A stretch of DNA of 50,809 bases from a phage. The position numbers and the translations under genes were made by a program. The DNA is taken from sequence record NC_136442.1, one strand, 5' to 3'. Position 1 is the stretch's first letter, and each line of letters starts with the position of its first letter. The notes below the pieces were generated by a model. It ran no database searches. It saw nothing but the letters and a program-made list of their open reading frames with translations, and was not told where the DNA came from. This document shows, one piece after another, positions 23,924 through 36,884 of the stretch.

Positions 23924-23955
23924 TATTTCAACGAAGCAAACATGAGGAAATAAAA

Positions 23956-24135
23956 ATGGTGGTATTCGATAAACGCGCTTTTAATCTTGCTCAAGAAGTA
24001 GCAAAAGGTTCAGTGGATGGCGGTTCAAAGGAAGGATTCCAGTTTGATTGGGAGATCGCAATGTTTTTACTGAAAGTTGCATACGGTCACGCACCAATTG
24101 AACAAGCGGAGGCATATTATAAGCATGAAGGTTGA
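23956..24135 (+). CDS. hypothetical protein (59 aa)
   Basis: ATG preceded by GAGGAAATAAAA; below the ORF-track size cutoff. Confidence 0.45.
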   Translation: MVVFDKRAFNLAQEVAKGSVDGGSKEGFQFDWEIAMFLLKVAYGHAPIEQAEAYYKHEG

Positions 24136-24367
24136 GCAAGGAAGAGATGCGGTATGGAATCACGCTAAAGAATGCGGTATTGCCGACGATATAAAGAAGA
24201 TCGCGCAATACTTTGATATTGCAGATGTGAGCATAATTAGCGGCGACAAGATGACTTTCCTCAAGGAAAGGCCGCGAAAAATGGTAAGAGTTCCAGCAGT
24301 TCCAACAAAAATTGATTTCAAAGAGGCAATGGCTAAAATCCGAGAGCCTCGCAAATATTATAAATGA
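24125..24367 (+). CDS. hypothetical protein (80 aa)
   Basis: ORF overlapping previous stop; start uncertain. Confidence 0.45.
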   Translation: MKVEQGRDAVWNHAKECGIADDIKKIAQYFDIADVSIISGDKMTFLKERPRKMVRVPAVPTKIDFKEAMAKIREPRKYYK

Positions 24368-24461
24368 GGATAGTTATCATGTGGCGCTTGTTTGTTCTAC
24401 CGTTACCAGTTATCATCGCTGTTACAGTTATGTACCATATAGTGATGAGATAGGTAGCAGA

Positions 24462-25577
24462 ATGAAAAATGTAAAAATTACAGATGAGAAATTCAAGATC
24501 GAACGGGCGGCAGGTAAGACATATAAACAGATCGCTCAAGAGTACGGAATGAATGTGAGAAGCGTCGAGCGTCGCGCGGCGCGTCTTGCAAAGCAAGGAC
24601 AGCTATCGACCATCGGAGCGCCTGGTTTTGGTGTTCATGGTGAGTCAGTAATGACTGACAAAGAAGGAAATATAATCCTCAAGTGGACCAAAACCAGCAA
24701 GGATAAAGAGCAATTAGAGGCATTGATGCGCGCAGCTATGGAGGCGTTTAGCGAGGAAGTGCCGCGATTAGATCCAGTTCCATTGCAGGAGCGTAATTAT
24801 AATGAAACGCTTTCATTGTATCCGATCTTTGACATGCACTTAGGCGCTATGGCCCATAAGCACGAATGCGGCGAAAATTGGGATACTGCGACGGCAGAGC
24901 GCGTTATGAATAACTTTATCGACTATGCTTTGATGTGCGCGCCGGACAGCGAAAAGGCTGTTATCCTGATTGGTGGCGATATGCTTCATAGCGATGGCCT
25001 GGAGGCTGTGACACCTGCAAGCGGTCACGTACTTGATCAAGATAGCCGATATGCAAAATTGGTTTACGTTGCAATCCGTGCAATGCGTCGCGCAATTAAT
25101 AAAATGCTGTTAAAGCATAAACATGTTGAGGTTCAGATCGTAGAGGGGAATCACGACCAATCAGGAATGATTTGGCTACGCGCAGCAATGGCGGCAGCAT
25201 ATGAGAACGAGCCGCGCGTTTACGTTGATGTTTCTCCTCGCGTTGTTCACCACACGCAATACGGAAAAACTTTCCTTGCGTACCATCACGGGCACACAGT
25301 GCGTAAACCGGAGACTTTGCTAATGATGTGCGCGTCAGATTGGCGGGAGGACTTCGGAAACTCAAAAACGATGTATGCGCACGTAGGGCACTGGCATCAC
25401 CAGACCGTGACGGAAACGTCGCTTGGGATCGTGGAGGTGCATAGCACCCTGGCGGCAAAAGACGCATACGCCGCGCGCGGTGGCTGGAGATCTCGACGCC
25501 GTGCAGCGGTTATCATTTACGACAAAGAGCATGGAGAAGTTGGGCGATTTGTTCACTATCCAGAAATGATGAATTGA
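24462..25577 (+). CDS. calcineurin-like metallophosphoesterase with N-terminal HTH-like segment
   Basis: FDMHLG, GGDMLHSD, EGNHDQ, YHHGH metallophosphatase motifs; N-terminal KTYKQIAQEYGMNVRSVERRAARL. Confidence 0.6.
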   Translation: MKNVKITDEKFKIERAAGKTYKQIAQEYGMNVRSVERRAARLAKQGQLSTIGAPGFGVHGESVMTDKEGNIILKWTKTSKDKEQLEALMRAAMEAFSEEVPRLDPVPLQERNYNETLSLYPIFDMHLGAMAHKHECGENWDTATAERVMNNFIDYALMCAPDSEKAVILIGGDMLHSDGLEAVTPASGHVLDQDSRYAKLVYVAIRAMRRAINKMLLKHKHVEVQIVEGNHDQSGMIWLRAAMAAAYENEPRVYVDVSPRVVHHTQYGKTFLAYHHGHTVRKPETLLMMCASDWREDFGNSKTMYAHVGHWHHQTVTETSLGIVEVHSTLAAKDAYAARGGWRSRRRAAVIIYDKEHGEVGRFVHYPEMMN

Positions 25578-25626
25578 TGAATTTTTATTTAAATCAATGA
25601 CAAATTAAATCAAAAACTTGCAAAGT

Positions 25627-25652
25627 GGCGGCGTTTGTCGCCTCTTTTTTTT
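25627..25652 (+). terminator. intrinsic terminator upstream of lysis cassette
   Basis: GGCGGCG-TTTG-TCGCC hairpin followed by T8. Confidence 0.65.
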
Positions 25653-25722
25653 GTTTAATTTTTTACCATGTGCGTTTATCATGCGGTCAATATATTGACT
25701 TTAATTAATATGGAGAATAAAA

Positions 25723-25938
25723 ATGAAAGATTTTATTAACGCAGCTACCGCCGGATCTGGCGGTTCATCTATCGCAAGCGCCGCTACAGGGCAGTTAACC
25801 ATTGCTATTGCCAGTTTTATTTTAATGGCTGCATTCGGTGCGTGGGGCGCTTACCTTCGCTGGCGTGATAGTAAAAAATTCCACGAGGCGATCGAAAAAG
25901 GTGATATTCAAAAAGCTATTGAGATCAGGGGCAAGTAA
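25723..25938 (+). CDS. holin (small, possibly pinholin-type)
   Basis: 71 aa, hydrophobic helix [21 protein letters not shown], charged C-terminus, directly upstream of endolysin. Confidence 0.7.
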
Positions 25939-26429
25939 TGAGCATAAAGAACAGGGTAGCGGCTGCGGCCTTTGGCGTTGCGGTTGCCTTGACTTCTCCA
26001 CTTCTTGAAGAGATCGAAGGGGTAAGATACAAGCCATACAAAGATATTGCGGGGGTATGGACGGTTTGCGCAGGAATCACCGGACCCGATGTTATCCTGG
26101 GGAAAACGTACACTAAAAAAGAGTGTGATGCTTTGTTGGCTAAGCATATCCAGGTTGCCAAAAAGGAAGTTGACAAGCAAGTTAAGGTTGACATTCCTGA
26201 TAGTATGCGTGCAGCAATGTACTCATTCACTTACAATGCAGGTGTGGGAGCTTTCAGAAATTCAACAATGCTGAAACTCATCAACCAGGGGAAATTAAAA
26301 GATGCTTGCGATCAGCTTTATCGTTGGACGTATTACCATAACCCCAAAACAGGAAGGCGCGAGAAGTCTAAAGGCTTACTTAACAGGCGCAATGTCGAAT
26401 ACAAATATTGCACAATGGATCTGAAATGA
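25938..26429 (+). CDS. endolysin, lysozyme-like with N-terminal signal-anchor-release (SAR) domain
   Basis: Catalytic-type E-x8-D-x5-T ([16 protein letters not shown]) after a weakly hydrophobic N-terminus [18 protein letters not shown]. Confidence 0.7.
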
Positions 26430-26821
26430 TGAAGAAATTTTTACTTACACCAATCGCAATGGCGGTGATCTTGTCTGGATGTTCAAGCGTTACGCCACTG
26501 ACCGGATTAATCGGCAGTAAGCCGGAAATCACAGCACAGGCTGGCGCGGAGAACGTGAAGCAGACAGTTGGCATTACAGCAAAGCAGGACGCCAGCACAA
26601 AACAGAAAACCACAATAAAGGAATCTGCGGTTGACAAGGTTGACACGTCCAGCAAGAAGGATTTCACAACATCAACCATTCAGGCCAATACCATCAAGGC
26701 AGACAAAATTCAGGTCGTGCAGGGTAATAACGGCAGATGGTACGATCCAATAATCATATGCGTGGTTGTGTTAATTGTGCTGATTTGTCTTTACTGGAGA
26801 GAAAAGAAAAAGGAGGCTTAA
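26426..26821 (+). CDS. unimolecular spanin (T1 gp11-like): lipoprotein signal plus C-terminal transmembrane helix
   Basis: Lipobox ILSGC at the N-terminus and C-terminal [15 protein letters not shown] helix in one polypeptide. Confidence 0.7.
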
Positions 26822-26840
26822 TGCCTCCTTTATTTTTATG
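26808..26840. terminator. bidirectional terminator between lysis cassette and leftward early genes
   Basis: AAGGAGGC-TTAA-TGCCTCCTT hairpin with flanking A/T runs. Confidence 0.7.
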
Positions 26841-27060
26841 CGTCGGGCCACATATGAGTTTCGTTTGTTGGCTTGTTCGATTCGTCGTACTGCCTTACTT
26901 CAATGCTGCAAGTGTCGCCATACATTCCTGCAATCTTGCGCTCATTTTCAACAGCCGATTGCTCACTCCATCCAAAATCCCTGTCATAAATTGTCGGGAT
27001 TTCAGCAGAAGATCCGTTGTCATGATTATATACGCGAACTACTAAAAACTTGCTGGACAT
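26836..27060 (-). CDS. hypothetical protein (74 aa)
   Basis: ORF downstream of a motif cassette with conserved leader and RBS. Confidence 0.55.
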   Translation of the reverse strand: MSSKFLVVRVYNHDNGSSAEIPTIYDRDFGWSEQSAVENERKIAGMYGDTCSIEVRQYDESNKPTNETHMWPDA

Positions 27061-27096
27061 AATTTTACCTTTTGGTTGTTTCGTTTCGATGAAACA

Positions 27097-27140
27097 AATA
27101 TACCCGACACTAGGCCGGGCGTTTTAACAAAAAATGCTAT
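27097..27140 (-). promoter_or_regulatory. motif-type promoter cassette (ATAGCATTTTTTGTTAAAAC, hairpin spacer, TATATT)
   Basis: Read on minus strand; hairpin GCCCGGCCTAGTGTCGGGT nearly identical to the one at 23900. Confidence 0.6.
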
Positions 27141-27331
27141 TCCATACGCTTTACCGTAACCAGTAATACACCATCATCATTGCATAAAACATGTTCAGTG
27201 GTGCTAAAAGCGCGCATATCTGAATAAAGTAGCGTAAGTAAAGCATGAATAAAATCCTCATGTGATATTGAATTTACGGCGCAGTGCTTCAAGATCTTGT
27301 CTATTAGCTTTTGCCTGGAACAATTCATCAT
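27137..27331 (-). CDS. hypothetical protein (64 aa)
   Basis: AGGGGAG RBS 7 nt upstream; stop TAG embedded in motif as for many early genes; overlaps 3' end of the upstream ORF. Confidence 0.45.
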   Translation of the reverse strand: MMNCSRQKLIDKILKHCAVNSISHEDFIHALLTLLYSDMRAFSTTEHVLCNDDGVLLVTVKRME

Positions 27332-27653
27332 CGCCCATCTCCCCTATTCTCGCCATATCCCTGATCCAGTCGTTGCGCATACCATCCAGGCTATACAATT
27401 CGAATCCGAAAGGCCGCTTTGACGATCCTTTGGACCAGTATTTTCCGCAGACCCCATCTATATAACCAGCCGTCATCATTCTTGCGCAAAATTCCTTAGA
27501 TGCAAGGCTGGCGAACATTCGCGGCGTAAGTCCGGCGGCCCTTGCGAGCCGCTCACATTCTCTATGCTGATAGATAAATTTGGCTATGTGCTGCCTGTTA
27601 AACCAGTCGTATGACTCACACCATTTATACAGATCAAGCAAAAACATAATCAT
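27258..27653 (-). CDS. hypothetical protein (131 aa)
   Basis: ATGA start-stop coupling with upstream ATPase gene. Confidence 0.55.
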   Translation of the reverse strand: MIMFLLDLYKWCESYDWFNRQHIAKFIYQHRECERLARAAGLTPRMFASLASKEFCARMMTAGYIDGVCGKYWSKGSSKRPFGFELYSLDGMRNDWIRDMARIGEMGDDELFQAKANRQDLEALRRKFNIT

Positions 27654-29230
27654 CCCAGCAGTATTGGATTGACAAAAATAACACCATTAATAACACAAAC
27701 ATAATTTCTTTCTTCCAGCATTGGCAGCAAGTGCCCTTCTATCCTCTTCATTACGCCAGCTTGACCAACGAAAGGTTTTACCTTTCTCGCTGATTCGTAC
27801 AGGGCGCGAATATTCAGAATCCCTTTATTAGCCTTGCCGTGTCTAGTGATCAATTCAATCAATTTGCCCATTTCAGCATCATCACCAGCATAACCAGAAG
27901 CATTGGCGGCGCTAATGTATGTTTTGCTCAATTCCTGAAACATGATCAGCGCCTCTTGCATTGTTTCCACGTCGATCTCTTTCGACTTCTGCGGGTATCC
28001 GGCAGGATTAAACCAGTTGCGGATAACATGCAGGACGGAAGCAAGCCTGATCACCTGTTTATCCATTTTACCCAGCGCACCGCGTAACATTGTATGAGAA
28101 TACTTTCCGCCGTCTGCAAGATGCGGTTCCATATCCTGGCGAGCAATGTTGAGCACTCGCATAGCTGAACGGCTTATTTTCAGCGATATATTTGATTCGC
28201 TCATGATGTTATGCACCAATTGATAATATTGGGCCTTCAATTCAGGATCCACCGCCTCATAGGTAGAATCACCATTTTCATCAATGAATGAGCGACGGCC
28301 TAAGAATGATTCCTCACGGACCAACAAAAAGCGCTCACTCACACCGATACCGCGCGATCCAGCGTCCATGATTCCGCTTATCGTTTCATCCTGGGCTATA
28401 ACGCTCATACATCCAAGCGCGCGAAAACTCATGTTATTGTCAGCATTAGCACGGGCAATTGATACGTGACCATTATCCCACGCCTTAAGCACTAGCTCGC
28501 TGTTAGTCTTCCTTTCGCTATTGGCATAGGTCAAGCCTAACAGGCTGTTAATACTTGTTGCTTCGTCAGATATTACGGCAAAGTTACCTTGCTTGTTGTT
28601 GATTTTCGCCAAGCCTTCTGGAGTGGTATCTGAAACAGGGAAAGTTATATCACACATCTTTTCCAGCTTCTCCTCCAGATCCTCTTTTTCCTGGTATAGA
28701 GATTCCATATCAGCGCCTGATCTTTCGCTTTTCATCTCCTTTGCAAGACCTGCCAACTTTGCCTGTATTTTCTTTCTTTCCTTGCGGCGTTGCTCGTTGA
28801 TCTTCTCAACTTCCGCAATCATCGGAGCAATAGCCATACTGTTGATCGCAGATTTACCAGTTGACGGCGGCTGGCTTGTAACGACGTAAAGCGCAGTCGG
28901 CTGATCGGTTCCGTGATAGTCAACTGTAAAGCGTCCAAGCATAGCGGCAGAAATGCAGCCGATAAAGTGCATGTAAGCCGATGATTCAGGGAATTGAACT
29001 GATCGCGCAATGCTGCGTGATAACTTGCCGACAACATCAATATCATTACCAAGAGAAATAACGGGGTAGCGATCGTGACCGCTATTTACATCCTTCACGT
29101 CGCCCCAAAAGCTGGACGACTGGCGATAGCCGTTAGCCTGAATTGATACGCGAACTGGTGAAAGGTTCTGGCTTTCAGCCATAGCGATTATTTGCTGTGG
29201 AGTTAATTTGTTCGTTTCTAATGAAAACAT
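27650..29230 (-). CDS. P-loop NTPase, putative replication helicase/primase-associated ATPase (DUF3987-like)
   Basis: Walker A-like SQPPSTGKS, 526 aa, AAGGAG RBS. Confidence 0.55.
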   Translation of the reverse strand: MFSLETNKLTPQQIIAMAESQNLSPVRVSIQANGYRQSSSFWGDVKDVNSGHDRYPVISLGNDIDVVGKLSRSIARSVQFPESSAYMHFIGCISAAMLGRFTVDYHGTDQPTALYVVTSQPPSTGKSAINSMAIAPMIAEVEKINEQRRKERKKIQAKLAGLAKEMKSERSGADMESLYQEKEDLEEKLEKMCDITFPVSDTTPEGLAKINNKQGNFAVISDEATSINSLLGLTYANSERKTNSELVLKAWDNGHVSIARANADNNMSFRALGCMSVIAQDETISGIMDAGSRGIGVSERFLLVREESFLGRRSFIDENGDSTYEAVDPELKAQYYQLVHNIMSESNISLKISRSAMRVLNIARQDMEPHLADGGKYSHTMLRGALGKMDKQVIRLASVLHVIRNWFNPAGYPQKSKEIDVETMQEALIMFQELSKTYISAANASGYAGDDAEMGKLIELITRHGKANKGILNIRALYESARKVKPFVGQAGVMKRIEGHLLPMLEERNYVCVINGVIFVNPILLG

Positions 29231-29258
29231 TCGTTAGCTTCTCCTTTGTGGGCCGTAA

Positions 29259-29302
29259 ATTTTAACGGCCCAATACTACCCCGTTTTGTCAAAAAGTGCT
29301 AT
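29259..29302 (-). promoter_or_regulatory. motif-type promoter cassette (variant ATAGCACTTTTTGACAAAAC, 18 nt, TAAAAT)
   Basis: Read on minus strand. Confidence 0.6.
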
Positions 29303-29520
29303 TTGATCCGCTCTATTGCAACCAGAAGTCGATCAGGCTGGCGGTCGCTGTAGCATTCTCCTGTAATCCCATCCTTAAACGTAAAGTAAAGCGCCTTATG
29401 ATATGAAAAACCAATCAGCCAACCTACCGCCGTTTTTTTGATGGGCCTGACTATATCGCCAGGCTTGAAAGTCTTTGTGGTAGAATGCGTTACTTTGTAA
29501 CGGTTTTCACTGTTTATCAC
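29299..29520 (-). CDS. hypothetical protein (73 aa, GTG start)
   Basis: GTGA overlap with upstream stop; GAGGGT RBS. Confidence 0.45.
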   Translation of the reverse strand: MINSENRYKVTHSTTKTFKPGDIVRPIKKTAVGWLIGFSYHKALYFTFKDGITGECYSDRQPDRLLVAIERIK

Positions 29521-29903
29521 AGATATTTACCCTCAAAAAGATAACAGCCGCCAGCAGAGAATCCGACCTCTTCACGGTACAGGTTCCAGCGATCGCCGCA
29601 CTCATCAAAAACATAACCCGCAACGCTTCCAAGCGGTCGCCCTTTCTCGATCTGGTATCGCTTGCCCTGCTTAAAGTGCTTTTTGCACGGCATGTTATGA
29701 TCTACAAACGTGCAAAGAACGGTTTTTGTGTTAATGGCGCGGTAATCATCTCGGTTTGCTGGAAGCCAGCGGCTACCCTTAACAAGCGTCTTAACCTGGA
29801 ACTCTTCCACCTCGATCACATCATCACTTCCTGCAATCTTCTGATAAACCGTTTTAAAACGGCCTTTCATCAATACGTTGGTTTCATTACAGACAACATT
29901 CAT
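29517..29903 (-). CDS. hypothetical protein (128 aa, Cys/His-containing)
   Basis: AAGGAG RBS; first gene after motif cassette. Confidence 0.6.
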   Translation of the reverse strand: MNVVCNETNVLMKGRFKTVYQKIAGSDDVIEVEEFQVKTLVKGSRWLPANRDDYRAINTKTVLCTFVDHNMPCKKHFKQGKRYQIEKGRPLGSVAGYVFDECGDRWNLYREEVGFSAGGCYLFEGKYL

Positions 29904-29932
29904 GATCAGATCTCCTTTGTTTGTTCGATGTG

Positions 29933-29976
29933 ATTATGCCAGGTTTTTACACCTGGCTTTTAACAAAAAGTGCTAT
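29933..29976 (-). promoter_or_regulatory. motif-type promoter cassette (motif, hairpin CCAGGTGTAAAAACCTGG, CATAAT)
   Basis: Read on minus strand. Confidence 0.6.
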
Positions 29977-30689
29977 TTTGAGTTTGACTCAAAGACGGCG
30001 CGAGCAAATCCGCGCGGAGTGAGGGAGCGGATCATCTTTGTGCGCGATGACTTACCGCCAGTTTTGGCCCAGCCTGGATTATCTTTGTCTTCCTCTTTCG
30101 GCAGGATTAAAGCGCGCGGAGGAATAACAAAGCCGTTGCCAGTCCAGAGGCACGTTTTCTTAAAATAGCGATCCCGTGCCGGAATAATATCAGGGAAGTC
30201 GGGATGTTTATCATCTTCCGGCAGATAGCCAGCGTAATCGCACGGATGGAACGTATAATCAGGCTTACGCCATAACGTTGACAACTTGCCAACCGGATTT
30301 TCGATCATGTAAGGAACACCGAAATAATCAGCTATATCAGCCGCAATTCTGCAAGTGTCGGCGGCCTCATCCTGGAATGATGGATTCTCAAGGCGTTTTT
30401 TGGCCCAATGGCGAGATCCGCTATTTGCAAGGTCGGTGCATGGTGGGAAGGCCATAATAAAATCAGGATTGCCCCACTCATTATTGATTGCCTTAACATA
30501 AAAAGCATCATCAATCCAGACGTTAACGTATTCGATATTCTCATGCTGTATGCGCACTGACTGGTAATCACCGTGATCGCCGCCGTCAGCATTAAAGCAA
30601 ATGCACTTATAGCCATTATCAGCCCAATCTTTAACGGCTTTACCAGATCCATCAAATAGGGAGAATATTAAACCTTTATACATCGTCAT
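29973..30689 (-). CDS. putative DNA (cytosine-5)-methyltransferase-like protein
   Basis: LFDGSG (motif I-like), PPC (motif IV-like), ENPVG (motif VI-like) in canonical order; alternative start at 30683. Confidence 0.45.
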   Translation of the reverse strand: MTMYKGLIFSLFDGSGKAVKDWADNGYKCICFNADGGDHGDYQSVRIQHENIEYVNVWIDDAFYVKAINNEWGNPDFIMAFPPCTDLANSGSRHWAKKRLENPSFQDEAADTCRIAADIADYFGVPYMIENPVGKLSTLWRKPDYTFHPCDYAGYLPEDDKHPDFPDIIPARDRYFKKTCLWTGNGFVIPPRALILPKEEDKDNPGWAKTGGKSSRTKMIRSLTPRGFARAVFESNSK

Positions 30690-30693
30690 TACC

Positions 30694-30918
30694 TCAAAAC
30701 GGAAAACAGCGCGCACAACCAGGATCGAAATCGCATCCACAATCATTAACAATCATAGTGGGATCTGCAAATATTGCGCTTGACTCAAGATCCATATCCA
30801 TATCACCTAAAGCCTCATCAAGAGTCTTAATTTTATATGCCACTTCAAGCGCCGCCTCTTTATTTAGTCCGGCATCTTCTGCCATTTGAAGGCGCTCAAA
30901 AAAACCATCTTGACTCAT
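30694..30918 (-). CDS. hypothetical acidic protein with C-terminal CGCDFDPGCARC motif
   Basis: 74-aa ORF, TGA/ATG coupling with upstream mini-gene. Confidence 0.5.
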   Translation of the reverse strand: MSQDGFFERLQMAEDAGLNKEAALEVAYKIKTLDEALGDMDMDLESSAIFADPTMIVNDCGCDFDPGCARCFPF

Positions 30919-31031
30919 CGCATAATCCCCTTAATAACAGCCAAGATAATAGCCAGGCCAGCAGCAGTAACCAAAAATCCAACCGCGCCAATAATCGAAT
31001 AAAAAAAGAAATCAATAGCTTTATCTATCAT
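30915..31031 (-). CDS. small hydrophobic membrane peptide (38 aa)
   Basis: MIDKAIDFFFYSIIGAVGFLVTAAGLAIILAVIKGIMR; GAGGTGG RBS; ATGA coupling to downstream gene; below ORF-track cutoff. Confidence 0.45.
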   Translation of the reverse strand: MIDKAIDFFFYSIIGAVGFLVTAAGLAIILAVIKGIMR

Positions 31032-31072
31032 TTTCCACCTCATTTAAAAGGCGGCAAACGCCGCCAGATTAA

Positions 31073-31300
31073 TTAAAGAGCGCGCCAACTTTGAATATAG
31101 AAAGCGTTTTCTTCCAGTAATTCTTTTACCTGATCTTTATTGTATTTGCGCACCTTGCCGCCTGGATGGATACCAATAAGATAGCCGCCTTTGCCCTCGG
31201 TAATAGTGATTTGGCTAATTCCGCAGGACTTATCAAGTTTTACAGCCACGCGGTGATGAGCGTCAATAGTTGCCATAATGTTTAAAACTTTTGCTTTCAT
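31073..31300 (-). CDS. hypothetical protein (75 aa)
   Basis: GAGGA RBS. Confidence 0.55.
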   Translation of the reverse strand: MKAKVLNIMATIDAHHRVAVKLDKSCGISQITITEGKGGYLIGIHPGGKVRKYNKDQVKELLEENAFYIQSWRAL

Positions 31301-31455
31301 TTAAATATCCTCAATTGAAATATGAATGACGTGGCGCTCTTTTTCCGTCGCCGCCGTAATGGTCATTTGCAACCGCCACCATCCAGGCATTTTTGAATAT
31401 AAAAAGCCTCATTTCTTATTTTTCAGCTTAAATTTATGAAATGGAATACCCGCCA

Positions 31456-31737
31456 TTATACGATCCCAGTTACGTTAAAACTTACAGCCTTTGTTGCGCT
31501 AAATACATAAGCATCAACAGCGCCGCCAAATACACGAATTTTACCCTGGCCGTACTGCGCATTCATATTTCGCCAAACCGTTCTATTAGAGCAGAATGCG
31601 CTACCAGTCTTAATAAGCGTATCCATCTCTTTTCTTAGATCGCGATAGTCCAGCCAGAATCTAAAGGCACGCTGTTTAATTCGCGCCGCCTTGATTTTTT
31701 CTCTTGCGCTATTGAAATCATTCTTTTCGTATGCCAT
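31456..31737 (-). CDS. hypothetical protein (93 aa)
   Basis: TAATG overlap with upstream gene. Confidence 0.5.
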   Translation of the reverse strand: MAYEKNDFNSAREKIKAARIKQRAFRFWLDYRDLRKEMDTLIKTGSAFCSNRTVWRNMNAQYGQGKIRVFGGAVDAYVFSATKAVSFNVTGIV

Positions 31738-31934
31738 TAAATGATCTCCATGTATGTTTCAAAGCCATTTAACTTGAACAGGCCGTTTTCACATTTGCGC
31801 ACGTTCCAAGTTAGCCCTGAGTGGTACGCCTCCATATCATCAAGGTCAATGGTGATTTCAGCACCTTTCTTAAACAAACCTTTTTCGTGAGACTTGTCGC
31901 GCTTAACAACTTTAACATCAACCTGATTTTCCAT
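31737..31934 (-). CDS. hypothetical protein (65 aa)
   Basis: Start MENQVDV follows cassette leader ...CATCGACAACAAGCGAGGATTTAAAG. Confidence 0.55.
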   Translation of the reverse strand: MENQVDVKVVKRDKSHEKGLFKKGAEITIDLDDMEAYHSGLTWNVRKCENGLFKLNGFETYMEII

Positions 31935-31965
31935 CTTTAAATCCTCGCTTGTTGTCGATGGGTGT

Positions 31966-32009
31966 AATATACCATTCAGGCGCACATCGTTTTTAACAAA
32001 AAGTGCTAT
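31966..32009 (-). promoter_or_regulatory. motif-type promoter cassette (motif with extra A, TATATT)
   Basis: Read on minus strand. Confidence 0.6.
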
Positions 32010-32296
32010 TCAACAACTTTTCCAGTTAAAGAGATAAGTTGCCTTGTGATCTTGTGGCGGCGATACTTACGCGCAACAACCGGAAGGTTTTCACCGCTTT
32101 GATGACCAAAGCAGATCGGCAATTCACCTTCAAGGGAGCGGAAGCCACCAAATTCAAGATCCCGCACTGGCTTAGCGCGCCAGGCTTCAATAAATCCGCG
32201 CTCGTCACGAGTGATATAGCGGTATATATTTGGGAGGGGCAATTGTATCCCCTCAAAATCAACTGTGTCGGTGTAGCTGTAAAACTTAGAACTCAT
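32006..32296 (-). CDS. hypothetical protein (96 aa from ATG 32296; frame open further upstream)
   Basis: GGAG RBS before ATG 32296; stop TAG embedded in motif. Confidence 0.5.
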   Translation of the reverse strand: MSSKFYSYTDTVDFEGIQLPLPNIYRYITRDERGFIEAWRAKPVRDLEFGGFRSLEGELPICFGHQSGENLPVVARKYRRHKITRQLISLTGKVVE

Positions 32297-32471
32297 AGTC
32301 AACAACTCCAAACTCGTTAACGATTTGCGCCTTGTAGAATCCGCCATTTTTCGCAAGGTTGTAGCAAGCGGCTACGGTTTCAAATTCGCGCGCTTCCGGC
32401 TGGCTGTTTTCGTGTTCCCAGGTAATCAGAGTAACCATTTTCAAATCCTCGCATTCGTTGTCGATGCGTGT

Positions 32472-32515
32472 AATGTACAGGAATACGAGGATTGAGTTTT
32501 AACAAAAAGTGCTAT
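32472..32515 (-). promoter_or_regulatory. motif-type promoter cassette (consensus motif, 18 nt, TACATT)
   Basis: Read on minus strand; leader ACACGCATCGACAACGAA. Confidence 0.6.
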
Positions 32516-32779
32516 TTAGTCCAGGAATTCGATTTCACGCTCTCCAGTTAACGGATCCACAAGCCAGAATCCGAGCGGTTCGCCGTGAACACCGCCATAG
32601 AATCCAAGCGCCGTCAGATCTTCACCTTTAACGAATACCAGATTCCCGCTACGGCTTACGTGAGACACGTTAACGATAACCGGAAATGTGCGATCCTTAA
32701 ATGCAGGCCGCAGGGCGTAACATCCGTTGTTGAGCAAACGTGCTTTGCGCTTAACTGGAATAGGTGCATTAATTTTCAT
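32516..32779 (-). CDS. hypothetical protein (87 aa)
   Basis: GGAG RBS; stop adjacent to motif. Confidence 0.55.
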   Translation of the reverse strand: MKINAPIPVKRKARLLNNGCYALRPAFKDRTFPVIVNVSHVSRSGNLVFVKGEDLTALGFYGGVHGEPLGFWLVDPLTGEREIEFLD

Positions 32780-32791
32780 GGTTATTACTCC

Positions 32792-33004
32792 TTATCGTAA
32801 AGATTTAAAGACGTATAGTTTACTGCGGTAACTATATATCCGCATTGTTATTTCTCGCAGTGCAATATATTCCTTCCTGTTTTCCGGCAGACTGGCGAGC
32901 AACAACAGGCAGTATTTATAAGCGCGGTCAAGATTCCTTTCCGTGCCCCTGCAATATCCCTTGTTGCGCCTGGAGCGGTACAGCCATAACAATTTCTTGA
33001 ACAT
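32792..33004 (-). CDS. hypothetical basic protein (70 aa); coding status uncertain
   Basis: ATG 2 nt after upstream stop; arginine-rich, weak RBS. Confidence 0.3.
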   Translation of the reverse strand: MFKKLLWLYRSRRNKGYCRGTERNLDRAYKYCLLLLASLPENRKEYIALREITMRIYSYRSKLYVFKSLR

Positions 33005-33005
33005 T

Positions 33006-33215
33006 TCAGATACGCCCATATAGATCACAGACTTCGTTGATAAAACAGCGTTGAGACTCTTTATCCTGCTTCTCAAACATCGCACGGCACTCATAGCGGT
33101 GATTATGTACGATGACAACAACCATATTTTCAGGTGCTGACGGGTTACGCGCGGAAGCGTCGCAGATTGAAACATCCATACCCATCTCATGTGCTTTCTT
33201 GATCACATCCAACAT
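33006..33215 (-). CDS. hypothetical protein (69 aa)
   Basis: AGGAG RBS 9 nt upstream of ATG 33215. Confidence 0.5.
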   Translation of the reverse strand: MLDVIKKAHEMGMDVSICDASARNPSAPENMVVVIVHNHRYECRAMFEKQDKESQRCFINEVCDLYGRI

Positions 33216-33469
33216 TTTTTCTTCTCCTGCAATAAGCAAACATCATTGATAAAATCAGCACGGCCCTTAATGTTGCTGATGTGGAACGTCTTTTCAGCGT
33301 ACAGGCCATCACCTTCAATCACGATCATTACGCGAGTCGGTTTATTTACGGGCGCACACGAAAAGAGTGGTCGCGCCGGAAGAAATTTAGTAGCCACATC
33401 CAGGTTAGCCCTGGCGGCCCTGCAAAACGCCTCCGCCAGATCCAAATCATTTTCGGTAATCACCGCCAT
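33203..33469 (-). CDS. hypothetical protein (88 aa)
   Basis: TAATG coupling with upstream gene. Confidence 0.5.
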   Translation of the reverse strand: MAVITENDLDLAEAFCRAARANLDVATKFLPARPLFSCAPVNKPTRVMIVIEGDGLYAEKTFHISNIKGRADFINDVCLLQEKKKCWM

Positions 33470-33741
33470 TACTTCTTGATCTCCTCACTGATAAATTTCA
33501 GCACCTGACGCAAGAAAACCTCGTTGTTGATAGTCGCTGGCAATTCTTCTTTCACTTCTTGCGGCAGATAGATATTGCCGTGCCAGGTCAAGCAATCGTA
33601 GTTGATACGATAAGAGCAAAGCCACTCGCAATCGTTATCTGCTTCCCAAATGCAGAGTTGCAGAACATCGCCAAAATCTTCAACAGTCAGATCCAGACCG
33701 TGACGCTTAGCGAAATTGAAAGTGGTTTTGCTGATGTTCAT
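33469..33741 (-). CDS. hypothetical protein (90 aa), first gene of the leftward early block
   Basis: Follows motif cassette; AGGAGA RBS. Confidence 0.6.
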   Translation of the reverse strand: MNISKTTFNFAKRHGLDLTVEDFGDVLQLCIWEADNDCEWLCSYRINYDCLTWHGNIYLPQEVKEELPATINNEVFLRQVLKFISEEIKK

Positions 33742-33775
33742 TGCTATCTCCTGAGCGGTTCGTTTCGATGTGTGT

Positions 33776-33819
33776 AATGTACCCGATCAGGTGGCCTGAG
33801 TTTTAACAAAAAGTGCTAT
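33776..33819 (-). promoter_or_regulatory. motif-type promoter cassette (consensus motif, 18 nt, TACATT)
   Basis: Read on minus strand; leader ACACACATCGAAACGAAC. Confidence 0.6.
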
Positions 33820-33850
33820 TTGACGGTTAGAGCCAGGATTGTGATCGAAA

Positions 33851-33938
33851 TAATCAGAAGTAATCATTCGTAATCAAATCACGTCAAAATGATGATTGCC
33901 TTTGCAAATTTGATGAGAAAAGTAATCACGTTTAATCA
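33851..33938. repeat. five TAATCA direct repeats phased at 10-bp intervals (33851, 33861, 33871, 33923, 33933)
   Basis: Read directly; helical phasing in a non-coding divergent region. Confidence 0.8.
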
Positions 33939-34358
33939 TTGGTTGCAGGGGAGATAGTGAAACATTCCCCTCTTGCCTCACTTTTCCGCCTGGCTGTCAG
34001 TGGTTGTTATGTTCCGTTCCCGCCTGTTCTTTTGTTGACCTTCCGCAAAATACGATAACAAAAAATAACAAACAATACCTATATAATACATTGAAAAATA
34101 AGGATTATTTATTTATATGTATCTATATATTCTCTTTTGTTATCTTGGTTATTGTGGTATTTGGTGGGGGTATATAGTTTTTGTGTATCTATATGTGTGT
34201 ATGGGTATGTAAGGGCATATATATCTATATGGCACTTTCCGCGAGAAAACTTCGATAACAATCAATGATAACATTGATTTATAAGGAAAAATAACGCCTA
34301 TATTGTTATTGTGCCACCATATAAAATTGATAAAACACGCGGGAACAAGAAAAAACAG

Positions 34359-34387
34359 TTGACACATTAAATAGCATTATTGATAAT
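34359..34387 (+). promoter_or_regulatory. consensus sigma70-type promoter TTGACA-17-GATAAT for the rightward early block
   Basis: Perfect -35, 17-nt spacer, -10 GATAAT, followed by AGGAGG RBS and ATG 34416. Confidence 0.7.
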
Positions 34388-34415
34388 GCCGACACCTAAC
34401 AACCAGGAGGCAGAA

Positions 34416-34880
34416 ATGAGCGAGCAATCATTCACTGACACGCTGCGCCGTGCAGCTATTATGCTGGCTAATGGCGAGGAAGAGACGATTAAGATTCCTG
34501 ACGCGTATTTGCAGGTCCACATGTTCGGCAAGAAGTCGGCAAGCAATCCGGCGGCCTACATTCGCCAGATCATGAGTCGAGTGCCAGAAGTCGCCGAGCG
34601 GGGGCGCGTATCCGTTACCCGTGGCGTTTACGGGCCGGAAGATGAAAACTTCGGTAGCACTTTCTACGAGGTGCGCATTGTTGAAGGCCGTCGCAAGGTT
34701 TACAACAAAGAGGCACTGGAAAGGGCAGTACGCCAGGCTAAGCGCAAAGTTGCAGAGGCGATCATTGATATGTCACCCAACCTGGCAAACTATGCGCCGG
34801 AAGAGTATGAAACATTATCAAAGGCCGTCGCTGACTTTCACGCGATGATCAAAAAAACTTTCCTGGAGGATGAGCAATGA
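34416..34880 (+). CDS. hypothetical protein (154 aa), first rightward early gene
   Basis: AGGAGG RBS 6 nt upstream; immediately downstream of the consensus promoter. Confidence 0.65.
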   Translation: MSEQSFTDTLRRAAIMLANGEEETIKIPDAYLQVHMFGKKSASNPAAYIRQIMSRVPEVAERGRVSVTRGVYGPEDENFGSTFYEVRIVEGRRKVYNKEALERAVRQAKRKVAEAIIDMSPNLANYAPEEYETLSKAVADFHAMIKKTFLEDEQ

Positions 34881-35137
34881 AAAAGGCGTTAATCGGTGTT
34901 TTGGTGGCAATGACACTCCTGACCGGATGCGAAAAGGCATCAGAATCAACGGTTGTCGTAGGCGTGGAGTCAGATTTCAAAGTCGGCCGCCTGTTCACTG
35001 TTGACGGATGCACAGCATACAGATTCTATGATAACGGTCGCGCGATCTATTACACCAATTGCAAAGGCGCAACGGATAGCACGTACAACAGCGGAAAGAA
35101 CGTAATGCACCAGCAAGTCACAACAGATATTAAATAG
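34877..35137 (+). CDS. lipoprotein (86 aa)
   Basis: Signal MKKALIGVLVAMTLLTGC with lipobox; ATGA overlap with upstream gene. Confidence 0.6.
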   Translation: MKKALIGVLVAMTLLTGCEKASESTVVVGVESDFKVGRLFTVDGCTAYRFYDNGRAIYYTNCKGATDSTYNSGKNVMHQQVTTDIK

Positions 35138-35177
35138 CACTTTTTGTTAAAACGCCAGGCGCAAAGCCTGGCATAAT
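35134..35177 (+). promoter_or_regulatory. motif-type promoter cassette (consensus motif, hairpin GCCAGGCGCAAAGCCTGGC, CATAAT)
   Basis: Read directly; leader AGCCTCATCGAAACGAGA then GAGGAA RBS. Confidence 0.65.
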
Positions 35178-35209
35178 AGCCTCATCGAAACGAGATTGAG
35201 GAAACAAAA

Positions 35210-35395
35210 ATGGCACGTCGCATCACCAAAGACCTTAAAGTTCTTAACAAAGAAAACGTAGTTAAAATCCTGGTTATCTGGGGCTACAACGAAGAAACAG
35301 CAAAGCAGAAGGTAGAGGCAGGTTATGACCTGGCTGTAAAAGCAATGCCAAACGACGACGCCAAAGGCATTGCAAACTATGTAGCTTTCTTTTAA
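35210..35395 (+). CDS. hypothetical protein (61 aa)
   Basis: ORF after cassette with RBS. Confidence 0.55.
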   Translation: MARRITKDLKVLNKENVVKILVIWGYNEETAKQKVEAGYDLAVKAMPNDDAKGIANYVAFF

Positions 35396-35410
35396 TTAGC
35401 AGGTGAATAA

Positions 35411-35596
35411 ATGAAAACGAAATTAGTCCATAAATCAGAAATCAAGATCGGCGATACTGTGATTCACAACGGAGAGCTTAGAACGGTTGGCAAAGAGTCA
35501 ATAAGCCACGATGAATTTATGGGGATTTTGTTGTTCGGTGACTCTTATCGTCTTGGTTACAAGATGGTTGAGCTTGTGGAAGAGGTAAAATTCTAA
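35411..35596 (+). CDS. hypothetical protein (61 aa)
   Basis: GGTGA RBS; stop adjacent to next motif. Confidence 0.5.
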   Translation: MKTKLVHKSEIKIGDTVIHNGELRTVGKESISHDEFMGILLFGDSYRLGYKMVELVEEVKF

Positions 35597-35640
35597 ATAG
35601 CACTTTTTGTTAAAACTCAAAAACGACAACCAGGCATAAT
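35597..35640 (+). promoter_or_regulatory. motif-type promoter cassette (consensus motif, 18 nt, CATAAT)
   Basis: Read directly; leader contains hairpin GGGGCGGCACGGCGTCGCCC. Confidence 0.6.
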
Positions 35641-35695
35641 AAATCACATGGGGCGGCACGGCGTCGCCCAGTAAAACCAATCAGGAGAAAGCATC

Positions 35696-36586
35696 ATGTT
35701 AAAACTTACTGACATTAAATTCCCGATCACCTTCGAATCTCGCGGCGTTGGTCATTTCATGTTTACCGACGAGAAGACATGCACTAAGTTTAACGAATAC
35801 GGAAGTCCAAACGCTTCAACAATGGAGATTGAACACTTCATTGAAGCGCACAATAAACACTACAACTCACTCAGAGACTACGGTTACGCAATGCCAGGCT
35901 ACACCTGTTTCCACTACAAGCCATATAAAGGCCAGGTGTTGCCAGTGCGCTCACCGGAACGCGCAGAGATTCCGATGGTCGAGATGAAAACCTGCGACTA
36001 TAAAAAATTGTGGTGCTTAAGTGTGGACAATATCAAGTATCCGATCACGTTCCGCTCCGCTGGTAATTCAACGATTCGCTACACATCGCGCGACAATGGC
36101 GTTTATAGCAGTGGTCAGAAATCAGAGCTTAAGGTGGATTTCTTTGTTAATGGTCATAATAAATACAATCCGCACAATGAAAAAGATAAGATTTACTATG
36201 TGGAAGACATTACAAAACACTTGTTTGGAGAAACTCCATTCGGCGGCGGAAAGACGTCAATTCAAAAAATAATTGGCGAGGAGATCCACAAAGCGGCTGC
36301 CGAAATGAAAGCGCCTGGAGGCTGGCGTATTGATAAGAGCGCCTTTGCAAATCAAGAAATCGTAACGCAGGGCGCGATTGAAGATATGCCAGTTGCAGCC
36401 ACGCTAAAAGGAGTCCGGCTTGATGATGGTGTGTGGTTTGAATTAACGGCTACACCAAAGACGATCGAGATTCATGATGATGTTGTTATCCTCCTGCTTC
36501 ACTACGGCGGCACTAAAAATCGGACTGTTGCAGGTGAGATCAGCATCAAGCGCGGAACGACGGTTAAGTGGAAGGTAAAGATTTGA
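35696..36586 (+). CDS. hypothetical protein (296 aa) with internal tandem duplication
   Basis: Segments DIKFPITFESRGVGH and NIKYPITFRSAGNST repeated within the protein; AGGAGA RBS. Confidence 0.65.
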   Translation: MLKLTDIKFPITFESRGVGHFMFTDEKTCTKFNEYGSPNASTMEIEHFIEAHNKHYNSLRDYGYAMPGYTCFHYKPYKGQVLPVRSPERAEIPMVEMKTCDYKKLWCLSVDNIKYPITFRSAGNSTIRYTSRDNGVYSSGQKSELKVDFFVNGHNKYNPHNEKDKIYYVEDITKHLFGETPFGGGKTSIQKIIGEEIHKAAAEMKAPGGWRIDKSAFANQEIVTQGAIEDMPVAATLKGVRLDDGVWFELTATPKTIEIHDDVVILLLHYGGTKNRTVAGEISIKRGTTVKWKVKI

Positions 36587-36662
36587 GTTTGTTCACTGCG
36601 GCGCACGTCGCCGCATGGATCGGATTGTTTGCCTACCTGTTTAGATTTTATTGAGGTGAGAG

Positions 36663-36815
36663 ATGGCTACCTGGATTTTGCTGATTCTTATGATTGATGG
36701 CGGCGTTGACCATATCGAAATGAATAGCCAGCAATCTTGCATTGAGGCACGAGAGCAGATCAAGAACAACAACAGGTTTTATGCGTACACTCACACGCTA
36801 TGTATTAAGAAATAG
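36663..36815 (+). CDS. hypothetical small hydrophobic protein (50 aa)
   Basis: GAGGTGAGAG RBS; stop TAG lies inside next motif; below ORF-track cutoff. Confidence 0.45.
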   Translation: MATWILLILMIDGGVDHIEMNSQQSCIEAREQIKNNNRFYAYTHTLCIKK

Positions 36816-36854: not shown

Positions 36855-36884
36855 GGCCTCACTTTCAACGAAGGAGATAAAACG

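What the first reader, a model, noticed from the sequence alone, without database searches (positions are those of the whole stretch)
29973..30689. Compact C5-cytosine methyltransferase-like gene in the early block
The 238-aa product carries motif I-like LFDGSG, motif IV-like PPC (AFPPCTDLANSG) and motif VI-like ENPVG in canonical order, but is shorter than typical C5 methyltransferases, leaving little room for a target recognition domain. Together with the Dam-like enzyme at 22893..23618 this suggests two-base self-modification as anti-restriction. Alternatively the protein uses the methyltransferase fold for another base modification.
Basis: partly seen in the sequence, partly recalled or inferred. 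Interest (0 to 1): 0.5.

Follow-up and report, generated by a model that had tools for sequence, protein, structure and literature searches.

The report
Known compact phage Dcm-like cytosine methyltransferase
This gene of a T1-like coliphage encodes an unusually small DNA cytosine-C5 methyltransferase that is already annotated in near-identical phages and whose 90%-identical ortholog has been shown to make 5-methylcytosine and to trigger the retron Ec86 defence, so the finding is correct but not new.

Summary
The ORF is real. It lies on the minus strand at 29973..30689, and the likelier start is the second ATG at 30683 (711 bp, 236 aa).

The window is a Warwickvirus (Drexlerviridae). The same gene is annotated "Dcm-like C5 cytosine methyltransferase" in phages 97-99% identical in DNA.

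Evidence for a C5-methyltransferase fold:
- Pfam and NCBIfam give no hit, but PHROG 757 "DNA methyltransferase" scores 1e-85.
- An AlphaFold model (pLDDT 89) has DNMT3B/3A, M.HhaI and M.HaeIII as its best structural matches.
- Profile-profile alignment puts motifs I, IV and VI in register with M.HhaI.

The small size is a family trait: about 2,050 representative clusters, the 42 aligned members being 210-251 aa. A 28-53-residue variable loop sits where the target recognition domain (TRD) normally lies.

The protein is 90% identical to KarlJaspers (Bas06) Dcm. A near relative of that phage, K42, has a 711-bp dcm gene that was shown to put 5mC on retron Ec86 msDNA and to trigger that defence (Wang et al., bioRxiv 2023; Cell Rep 2024).

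The Dam partner at 22893..23618 is confirmed (PF05869). CCWGG specificity and an anti-restriction role are plausible but were never cleanly separated from host Dcm.

Verdict: already known, low interest.

The parts
29973..30683 (-). Coding sequence of the compact Dcm-like C5-cytosine DNA methyltransferase (711 bp, 236 aa plus stop).
   Evidence: ORF and sequence. PHROG 757, 1e-85. 100% identical protein in phage orkinos. 90% identical to KarlJaspers Bas06 Dcm-like. Model pLDDT 89 with C5-MTases as best structural matches.
30692..30695 (-). Shine-Dalgarno-like GAGG, 8 nt upstream of the ATG at 30683. It overlaps the TGA stop (30694..30696) of the upstream 74-aa ORF.
   Evidence: The same arrangement occurs in KarlJaspers. 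[quoted passage not shown]
30642..30656 (-). Motif I (FDGSG, residues 10-14), the predicted AdoMet-binding loop after strand beta-1.
   Evidence: Aligned to M.HhaI F18-A-G-L-G22 by hhalign and to DNMT3B by HMMER. The first Gly is not conserved in the wider family.
30417..30449 (-). Motif IV (FPPCTDLANSG, residues 79-89) with the catalytic nucleophile Cys82 (codon 30438..30440).
   Evidence: Cys82 is invariant in 42 diverse members. Aligned to M.HhaI P80-C81. A K42 Dcm quadruple mutant (C82A with E128A, K175A, K176A) gives only background 5mC and does not trigger the retron.
30291..30302 (-). Motif VI (ENPV, residues 128-131). Glu128 is the predicted proton donor to cytosine N3.
   Evidence: E128 and P130 are invariant. 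Aligned to M.HhaI E119-N120-V121.
30144..30173 (-). Family-specific block DRYFKKTCLW (residues 171-180) on strand beta-7, in the position of canonical motif VIII (QxRxR). K175 and K176 are the proposed substrate-binding residues.
   Evidence: D171, Y173, K175, T177 and W180 are invariant or nearly so. Secondary structure of the model. K175 and K176 were chosen by superposition on DNMT3A in the K42 study. No sequence match to motif VIII.
30060..30137 (-). Variable loop (residues 183-208) lying where the TRD sits in canonical enzymes. Inferred to be a miniature TRD.
   Evidence: The spacer from W180 to R219 varies from 28 to 53 residues in the family, and the loop has low conservation (0.34). 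Model pLDDT drops to 71-82 around residues 201-220. The role is an inference.
29982..30059 (-). Conserved C-terminal block GGKSSRTKMIRSLTPRGFARAVFESN (residues 209-234, two helices). It resembles motif IX and/or motif X, but the assignment is unresolved.
   Evidence: Conservation. No significant profile match to the M.HhaI C-terminus.
22893..23618 (+). Partner gene: phage T1-type Dam N6-adenine DNA methyltransferase.
   Evidence: PF05869 Dam, E = 3.9e-61. Annotated 'Dam-like N6-adenine methyltransferase' in FritzSarasin and KarlJaspers.

Best explanation
The gene encodes a minimal AdoMet-dependent DNA cytosine-C5 methyltransferase of a phage-borne family (PHROG 757) that standard domain models miss.

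Inferred mechanism, from the conserved motifs and the chemistry of the C5-MTase class:
- The FDGSG loop and the acidic or amide residue at the end of strand beta-2 bind AdoMet.
- The target cytosine is flipped out of the helix.
- Cys82 of the PPC motif attacks C6, and Glu128 of ENPV protonates N3.
- The methyl group goes to C5.
- K175 and K176 on strand beta-7 take the place of the RxR motif.
- A 26-residue variable loop (183-208), together with the conserved loops at 138-176, does the job of the much larger TRD.

Shown experimentally, by others, on a near-identical ortholog: 5mC is produced on DNA in vivo, dependent on a quadruple C82/E128/K175/K176 mutation. This methylation of the retron Ec86 msDNA stem-loop triggers abortive infection.

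Inferred: the target is CCWGG. During infection the enzyme, together with the phage Dam, fully methylates progeny DNA. That protects it from CCWGG-directed (EcoRII-type) and GATC-directed restriction in hosts that lack or under-express Dcm and Dam.
For: Sequence and family:
- PHROG 757 'DNA methyltransferase', E = 1.1e-85.
- All 13 weak PDB profile hits are C5-MTases (DNMT3B, M.HaeIII), with motifs I and IV in register.
- hhalign of the family profile against 48 canonical C5-MTases gives P = 4.8e-4, with motifs I, IV and VI aligned to M.HhaI F18/G22, P80-C81 and E119-N120-V121.
- Cys82 and Glu128 are invariant in 42 diverse members.

Structure:
- AF2 model with pLDDT 89 and pTM 0.88.
- Foldseek: the top 19 PDB matches are all DNMT3A/B, E about 2e-6.

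Fusions: a relative is fused to a D12 Dam domain (P0250).

Link to experiment:
- 90% identity without gaps to KarlJaspers Bas06 Dcm-like, with residues 121-236 almost identical.
- K42 dcm is the same length and has the same C82/E128/K175/K176 numbering.
- LC-MS detected 5mC on msDNA, and the gene triggers retron Ec86.

Specificity:
- DNA of Pantoea phage AAS23 (syntenic ortholog, 61% identical) is reported as Dam- and Dcm-methylated from digests that included EcoRII. HHpred gives 99.7% to Shigella Dcm 3ME5.
- Klebsiella phage KP36 DNA is fully EcoRII-resistant.
- In the window, CCWGG (127 observed / 125 expected) and GATC (309 / 302) are not avoided. CCSGG (4 / 22) and most 6-bp palindromes (median O/E 0.29) are strongly avoided.
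Against: - Pfam PF00145 and NCBIfam give no hit for this protein, even at E <= 10. Only 3 of 42 relatives touch PF00145, best E = 0.0039.
- The C-terminal 100 residues show no detectable sequence similarity to motifs VIII-X.
- TM-scores to solved C5-MTases are only 0.4-0.5.
- CCWGG specificity was assumed by analogy in the K42 study. The msDNA site mutants could equally break the contact with the effector.
- In every case of EcoRII-resistant virion DNA, a host Dcm was not excluded.
- The retron work was done in MG1655, a dcm+ strain to my knowledge, where the control msDNA had little 5mC. That is odd if host and phage enzymes have the same target.
- BASEL found no simple link between methyltransferase genes and restriction resistance.
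- Phage T1, which lacks the gene, shows only mild CCWGG depletion (O/E 0.82), so the site-frequency argument is weak.
Confidence: 0.9

Rival explanations
1. It is a C5-cytosine methyltransferase, but its specificity differs from E. coli Dcm. It might methylate the outer C of CCWGG, recognise a shorter or degenerate motif, or accept hemi-sites, hairpins and mismatched DNA. The minimal variable loop would read fewer bases than a full TRD.
For: - The region in the TRD position is only 28-53 residues in the family.
- The closest solved folds are the DNMT3 enzymes, which read a 2-bp site.
- In MG1655 (dcm+ to my knowledge), control msDNA had low 5mC and the retron was not self-activated, yet the phage enzyme methylated and activated it.
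- The K42 authors note that Dcm itself is probably toxic when over-expressed.
- CCWGG was assumed, not mapped.
Against: - EcoRII resistance of AAS23 and KP36 virion DNA fits inner-C methylation of CCWGG.
- Changing either C of the msDNA CCTGG abolished defence.
- CCWGG is not avoided in this genome, whereas CCSGG is 5-fold depleted.
Confidence: 0.2
2. The methyltransferase fold is used for a different cytosine modification, such as C5-carboxymethylation with carboxy-AdoMet or another adduct.
For: - The C-terminal cofactor-side motifs (IX/X) are not recognisable by sequence.
- Motif I is loosely conserved in the wider family.
Against: - LC-MS against a 5mC standard detected 5mC dependent on the K42 enzyme.
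- Related phage DNA behaves as Dcm-methylated in digests.
- I saw no partner gene for a modified cofactor among the genes flanking it; the Pfam-scanned neighbours gave only DUF3987 or no hit.
- 8yf3 is itself an ordinary member of the C5-MTase fold, so the match says nothing about the cofactor.
Confidence: 0.03
3. The natural substrate is not the phage genome. It could be RNA (DNMT2-like tRNA m5C methylation) or host DNA, so the enzyme would act in host takeover or regulation rather than in self-protection.
For: - BASEL saw no correlation between methyltransferase genes and restriction resistance.
- The only direct substrate shown so far is msDNA, a host-made small DNA.
Against: - DNA enzymes (DNMT3, M.HhaI and prophage DNA MTases) score higher than DNMT2.
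- A relative is fused to a Dam-type DNA adenine methyltransferase.
- Virion DNA of related phages is EcoRII-resistant.
- The gene is carried by about 1,500 lytic phage records of many families.
Confidence: 0.04

Closest known systems
Dcm of phage K42 / KarlJaspers (Bas06), the trigger of retron Ec86 (Eco1). Wang et al., bioRxiv 10.1101/2023.08.16.553469; Cell Rep 2024;43:114857.
   Same: - Same gene length (711 bp) and same syntenic position, two small ORFs beyond the DUF3987 helicase gene in the same minus-strand cluster.
- 90% identity without gaps to the Bas06 protein.
- Identical C82, E128, K175 and K176.
   Different: - 24 substitutions, almost all in residues 23-120.
- A different genus (Warwickvirus rather than Hanrivervirus).
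- The K42 sequence itself was not available to me. Only Bas06, whose genome is 95.4% identical to K42's, was compared.
'Dcm-like C5 cytosine methyltransferase' / 'DNA methyltransferase' genes of Warwickvirus phages (orkinos, tonnikala, tiwna, FritzSarasin Bas04, swan01); PHROG 757.
   Same: - Protein 100% identical in orkinos.
- Gene 98-99% identical in tonnikala and swan01.
- Same neighbours.
- PHROG 757, E = 1e-85.
   Different: Nothing of substance. Some records use a longer TTG start (774 bp in Bas04, 257-259 aa), which is probably an over-extension.
Canonical bacterial C5-cytosine DNA methyltransferases (Pfam PF00145; M.HhaI, M.HaeIII, E. coli Dcm).
   Same: - Same fold.
- Motifs I, IV (PC) and VI (ENV) in the same order and register.
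- A catalytic Cys and Glu.
   Different: - 236 aa against 327 for M.HhaI (E. coli Dcm is 472 aa, from my own knowledge).
- Below all PF00145 thresholds.
- No QxRxR motif VIII. It has DxYxKKT instead.
- No recognisable motif IX or X.
- A 28-53-residue loop in place of the TRD, which is about 100 residues between motifs VIII and IX in M.HhaI.
Catalytic domain of mammalian DNMT3A/DNMT3B.
   Same: - Best sequence matches in the PDB.
- Both have a reduced TRD.
   Different: - 13-18% identity and TM-scores of only 0.4-0.5.
- DNMT3 works as a tetramer with DNMT3L and reads CpG. The oligomeric state of the phage enzyme is unknown.

Membership tests
C5-cytosine DNA methyltransferase (Pfam PF00145 class) | Scores above the curated PF00145 threshold. 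| tested here: not met
   No Pfam hit for the window protein even at E <= 10. Only 3 of 42 diverse relatives touch PF00145, best E = 0.0039. NCBIfam gives no hit. The precomputed Pfam field is empty for all 120 close homologues.
C5-cytosine DNA methyltransferase (Pfam PF00145 class) | Motif I (FxGxG AdoMet loop) after strand beta-1. | tested here: met
   F10-D-G12-S-G14 aligns to M.HhaI F18-A-G20-L-G22 and to DNMT3B. In the wider family only the last Gly is mostly kept.
C5-cytosine DNA methyltransferase (Pfam PF00145 class) | Motif IV Pro-Cys dipeptide with the catalytic Cys. | tested here: met
   P81-C82 aligns to M.HhaI P80-C81. C82 is invariant in 42 members.
C5-cytosine DNA methyltransferase (Pfam PF00145 class) | Motif VI Glu-Asn-Val. 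| tested here: met
   E128-N129-P130-V131 aligns to M.HhaI E119-N120-V121. E128 is invariant.
C5-cytosine DNA methyltransferase (Pfam PF00145 class) | Motif VIII (QxRxR). | tested here: not met
   No alignment beyond residue 136. The strand in that position carries D171-x-Y-x-K175-K176-T, conserved in the family. Lys for Arg is a plausible functional substitute, but that is inference.
C5-cytosine DNA methyltransferase (Pfam PF00145 class) | TRD between motifs VIII and IX, then motifs IX and X. | tested here: inconclusive
   Only a 28-53-residue variable spacer is present. The C-terminal IRSLTPRGFARAV resembles both motif IX (RxLxPRExAR) and motif X by eye, but gives no significant profile match. 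No residue-level structural alignment was available.
C5-cytosine DNA methyltransferase (Pfam PF00145 class) | C5-MTase three-dimensional fold. | tested here: met
   [not shown]
C5-cytosine DNA methyltransferase (Pfam PF00145 class) | Produces 5-methylcytosine in DNA. | not testable with these tools
   Literature only: LC-MS detection of 5mC for the K42 ortholog. The window protein is 90% identical to the Bas06 relative.
Dcm-type specificity (C-5mC-WGG) | Methylates the inner C of CCWGG and so blocks EcoRII. | not testable with these tools
   Indirect evidence only. AAS23 and KP36 virion DNA is reported as Dcm-methylated or EcoRII-resistant, with host Dcm not excluded. msDNA CCTGG mutants lose defence. 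CCWGG O/E is 1.02 against 0.18 for CCSGG in the window. T1, without the gene, has O/E 0.82.
PHROG 757 (phage DNA methyltransferase) | Full-length match to the family profile. | tested here: met
   E = 1.1e-85, residues 2-237 against profile positions 11-219 of 247.
Phage trigger of retron Ec86/Eco1 | Orthology to the K42 Dcm that methylates msDNA and activates the effector. | tested here: met
   Orthology is supported: 90% identity to Bas06 Dcm, synteny, the same length and the same catalytic residues. Triggering by this particular protein was not tested.

The most novel reading that the evidence does not exclude
The family may be a truly minimal C5-methyltransferase that reads DNA with a 28-53-residue loop, perhaps as a dimer. 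Its real specificity may then differ from host Dcm: relaxed, outer-C, or tolerant of hairpins and hemi-sites. That would explain why a dcm+ host does not set off retron Ec86 while the phage enzyme does. It would also make the family a useful minimal scaffold, missing from Pfam, for studying or engineering C5-MTase target recognition.
Probability: 0.2. Interest if true: 0.45.

Novelty: already known. Interest (0 to 1): 0.15.

Why it matters
The gene is a known double-edged phage function. It is a self-methylation enzyme that probably shields CCWGG sites from restriction, and it is also the signal by which retron Ec86/Eco1 detects infection.

For this window it adds nothing new beyond a corrected start codon.

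Three points remain open and are cheap to resolve. The family escapes Pfam and NCBIfam models, and at least one published analysis (Klebsiella phage KP36) concluded that no cytosine methyltransferase gene was present. Its base-resolution specificity has never been mapped in a dcm-negative background. How so small an enzyme reads its site is unknown.

Tried and rejected
- Pfam and NCBIfam scans of the protein gave nothing. phmmer and hmmsearch against PDB sequences gave only sub-significant DNMT3B and M.HaeIII hits.
- hhalign of the family against M.HhaI alone or its narrow family found only motif IV, at negligible probability. A global hhalign run gave a nonsense alignment. Only a broader canonical profile built from IMG/VR loci gave the motif I-VI alignment, and nothing for the C-terminal 100 residues.
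- The second homologous-protein search (M.HhaI) returned only relatives 71-100% identical, so it added little.
With the close alignment it found only 3 loci, so no restriction-modification operon context was obtained that could reveal specificity.
- The afdb50 fold library was unavailable.
- The published Cell Reports version could not be read.
- Literature searches for nanopore or bisulfite methylomes of these phages found nothing relevant.
- Comparing CCWGG frequency with phage T1, which lacks the gene, gave only a weak difference (0.82 against 1.02-1.11). I rejected it as evidence of specificity.
- The carboxymethyltransferase idea raised by the 8yf3 match was rejected because 5mC was measured directly.
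- The promoter and terminator scan of 26.5-36.5 kb found no more sites than in shuffled sequence, so it says nothing about timing of expression.

Full report
**1. The observation**

A minus-strand ORF ends at 29973. The quoted motifs are present and in the stated order: FDGSG (residues 10-14), FPPCTDLANSG (79-89, Cys82) and ENPV (128-131).

I favour the 30683 start, for three reasons:
- A GAGG lies 8 nt upstream of it and only 2 nt upstream of the other ATG. It overlaps the TGA stop of the preceding 74-aa ORF.
- In phage KarlJaspers the upstream ATG is out of frame and the gene is annotated as 711 bp.
- Homologues begin at this point.

This changes the product by two residues only.

**2. Where the window comes from**

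The 3-kb region around the gene is 97-99% identical to Escherichia phages tiwna, tonijn, tonnikala, vB_EcoS-95, FritzSarasin (BASEL Bas04) and others. These belong to Drexlerviridae, Tempevirinae, Warwickvirus.

The protein is 100% identical to that of phage orkinos. In these records the gene is annotated 'putative DNA methylase', 'DNA-cytosine methylase', 'dcm' or 'Dcm-like C5 cytosine methyltransferase'.

It sits in a minus-strand cluster of small ORFs. Two small ORFs separate it from a DUF3987 helicase gene at 27650..29230 (PF13148), as in FritzSarasin, KarlJaspers and Pantoea phage AAS23.

**3. Is it a C5-methyltransferase?**

Standard models miss it:
- Pfam gives no hit even at E <= 10, and NCBIfam gives none.
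- The precomputed Pfam field is empty for all 120 close homologues.
- Only 3 of 42 diverse relatives touch PF00145, best E = 0.0039.

PHROG 757 'DNA methyltransferase' matches over the full length (E = 1.1e-85).

Against PDB sequences, a family profile gives only E of about 0.08. All 13 hits are C5-MTases (DNMT3B, M.HaeIII), with motifs I and IV in register.

An AlphaFold2 model built on 28 sequences is confident (pLDDT 89.2, pTM 0.88).
- Foldseek's top 19 PDB matches are all DNMT3A/B (E about 2e-6), with modest TM-scores of 0.4-0.5.

I wrote the M.HhaI sequence from memory and verified it as identical to PDB 10mh_A. I then built a 48-sequence canonical C5-MTase alignment from IMG/VR loci. Local hhalign against the 42-member family alignment gave P = 4.8e-4 (probability 32%). 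Window residues 1-136 aligned with M.HhaI 9-127, placing:
- F10/G14 on F18/G22;
- P81-C82 on P80-C81;
- E128-N129-V131 on E119-N120-V121.

Narrower comparisons found only motif IV. Nothing aligned for the last 100 residues. An independent published HHpred run on the AAS23 ortholog reported 99.7% probability to Shigella Dcm 3ME5. That ortholog is 61% identical to the window protein and syntenic.

So the fold and the catalytic half are those of a C5-MTase. The C-terminal half is family-specific.

**4. Anatomy of the family**

A profile search of 1.84 billion representatives found 2,050 clusters at E <= 1e-3 (908 at 1e-10). The full-length proteins among the best 150 are mostly about 210-260 aa, and the 42 aligned members are 210-251 aa, median 233. 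The small size is therefore a family trait, not a truncation.

Across 42 members 33-57% identical to the window protein:
- C82, E128, P130, P147, Y173, W180 and P188 are invariant.
- F79, T83, G89, N129, R139, D171, K175, T177, R219, S220, P223 and G225 are nearly so.

The canonical QxRxR motif VIII is replaced by DxYxKKTxxW on strand beta-7.

The spacer between W180 and R219 lies where the TRD sits in canonical enzymes. It is the most length-variable segment, at 28-53 residues, and is poorly conserved. I infer that it acts as a miniature TRD.

The C-terminal block GGKSxRTKxIRSxTPRGFAxAV resembles motif IX or motif X by eye, but I could not assign it.

Relatives occur in several forms:
- a fusion with a D12-class Dam domain (P0250) and a fusion with an HNH nuclease (P0249);
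- a domain inside 1,100-1,400-aa phage proteins;
- proteins with long low-complexity N-termini that look eukaryote-like (P0241, P0262).

Close relatives are almost absent from species-representative bacterial genomes, with only 3 loci found. tblastn finds the protein in 1,498 phage records from Escherichia, Klebsiella, Salmonella, Shigella, Vibrio and other hosts. These include large myoviruses of 130-170 kb.

**5. What is already known experimentally**

Wang et al. (bioRxiv 10.1101/2023.08.16.553469; published as Cell Rep 2024;43:114857) isolated escapers of retron Ec86 from phage K42. K42 is a KarlJaspers-like Drexlerviridae phage, 95.4% identical to Bas06.
- All four escapers disrupted a 711-bp 'Dcm-like C5 cytosine methyltransferase' gene or a base 9 bp upstream of it.
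- Expression of the gene was toxic only in the presence of the retron.
- A C82A/E128A/K175A/K176A mutant was inert.
- LC-MS showed high 5mC in msDNA only with the active enzyme.
- 34 of 35 retron-sensitive phages carried the gene.

The window protein is 212/236 (90%) identical to the Bas06 protein without gaps, and nearly identical from residue 121 on. It carries C82, E128, K175 and K176 at the same numbers. Later papers treat this as established.

**6. Specificity and purpose**

CCWGG was assumed in the K42 study by analogy with E. coli Dcm. The support offered is that changing CCTGG in the msDNA stem to AATGG, ACTGG or CATGG abolished defence. That result could also reflect a lost contact with the effector.

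Virion DNA of AAS23 is reported as Dam- and Dcm-methylated from digests that included EcoRII. DNA of Klebsiella phage KP36 is fully EcoRII-resistant despite 155 sites. The KP36 authors, finding no cytosine methyltransferase gene, credited the host. Host Dcm was not excluded in either case.

In the window, site frequencies look like this:

| Site | Observed / expected |
|---|---|
| CCWGG | 127 / 125 |
| GATC | 309 / 302 |
| CCSGG | 4 / 22 |
| 6-bp palindromes | median O/E 0.29; 35 of 64 below 0.5 |

. This fits protection of exactly the Dam and Dcm sites, but host methylation would give the same picture. Phage T1 lacks the gene (no tblastn hit) and shows CCWGG O/E 0.82, against 1.02-1.11 in four carriers. 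That difference is too weak to decide anything.

BASEL found no simple relation between methyltransferase genes and restriction sensitivity.

One oddity remains. The retron experiments were done in MG1655, which to my knowledge is dcm+, yet control msDNA had little 5mC and the retron was quiet. Either host Dcm cannot reach the msDNA, or the phage enzyme has a different or broader substrate range.

**7. The partner enzyme**

22893..23618 (+) encodes a phage T1-type Dam (PF05869, E = 3.9e-61). It is annotated as such in relatives. The 'two-base self-modification' picture is therefore right as a description of the gene content.

**8. Verdict**

- The alternative reading, another modification, is not supported.
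- The item is already known: it is annotated in near-identical genomes, and an ortholog has been characterised functionally.
- Three points keep some interest: the family is invisible to Pfam and NCBIfam, its base-resolution specificity has not been mapped in a dcm-negative background, and its minimal recognition loop has no structural explanation.

Noticed in passing
window 1..50809 (whole): Restriction-site avoidance is pervasive. The 64 six-base palindromes have a median observed/expected of 0.29, and 35 are below 0.5. Examples: TCCGGA 0/20, AAGCTT 0/18, GGCGCC 0/17, GAATTC 2/14. CCSGG is 4/22. GATC (309/302) and CCWGG (127/125) are not avoided. Phage T1 shows much weaker avoidance (median 0.66) and no CCSGG depletion.
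   Followed up: partly
window 30683..30752 (-); L001:6974-7747 (FritzSarasin bas04_0049): Start-codon annotation is inconsistent among public records. The gene is 774 bp (257 aa, TTG start overlapping the upstream ORF) in FritzSarasin and in the 257-aa cluster representative P0001 (a cluster of 320 member sequences). It is 711 bp in KarlJaspers. The ribosome-binding site and the homologue N-termini favour 711 bp.
   Followed up: yes
window 31050..31065 (-): A strong terminator-like hairpin (GGCGGC-GTTT-GCCGCC followed by a T-run, 6 G-C pairs) lies about 365 nt upstream of the methyltransferase start, between two small minus-strand ORFs. It may split the leftward cluster into transcription units.
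   Followed up: no
P0250, P0249 (representative library); BFVD A0A6J5SE15, A0A6J5NPY6: The compact domain occurs fused to a D12-class Dam domain (563 aa) and to an HNH nuclease (348 aa). It also occurs inside 1,100-1,400-aa phage proteins, one of them with a helicase/UvrB N-terminal annotation.
   Followed up: partly
P0240, P0241, P0262 (representative library): Homologues of 400-450 aa carry long low-complexity, Ser/Ala/Glu-rich N-termini that look eukaryote-like. In P0240 the catalytic PPC has become PPG and ENP has become SNP, so it is probably inactive.
   Followed up: no
L089 (phage T1, NC_005833) 44105..48674: Phage T1 itself has no homologue of this gene, although it shares the helicase and small-ORF cluster. 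An HNH endonuclease gene (ST8) sits beside the helicase there.
   Followed up: partly
phage records MG0656xx ('Campylobacter phage' C9, C12, A131, A14b): About 20-39 records labelled as Campylobacter jejuni phages carry this enterobacterial-phage gene, and some have coliphage-like genome sizes. The host labels look doubtful.
   Followed up: no
literature: Klebsiella phage KP36 (PMC3620542): KP36 DNA has 155 EcoRII sites and is completely EcoRII-resistant. The authors reported no phage cytosine methyltransferase gene and credited host Dcm. Drexlerviridae Klebsiella phages commonly carry this Pfam-invisible family (521 Klebsiella phage records), so the gene may simply have been missed. I did not check the KP36 genome.
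   Followed up: no
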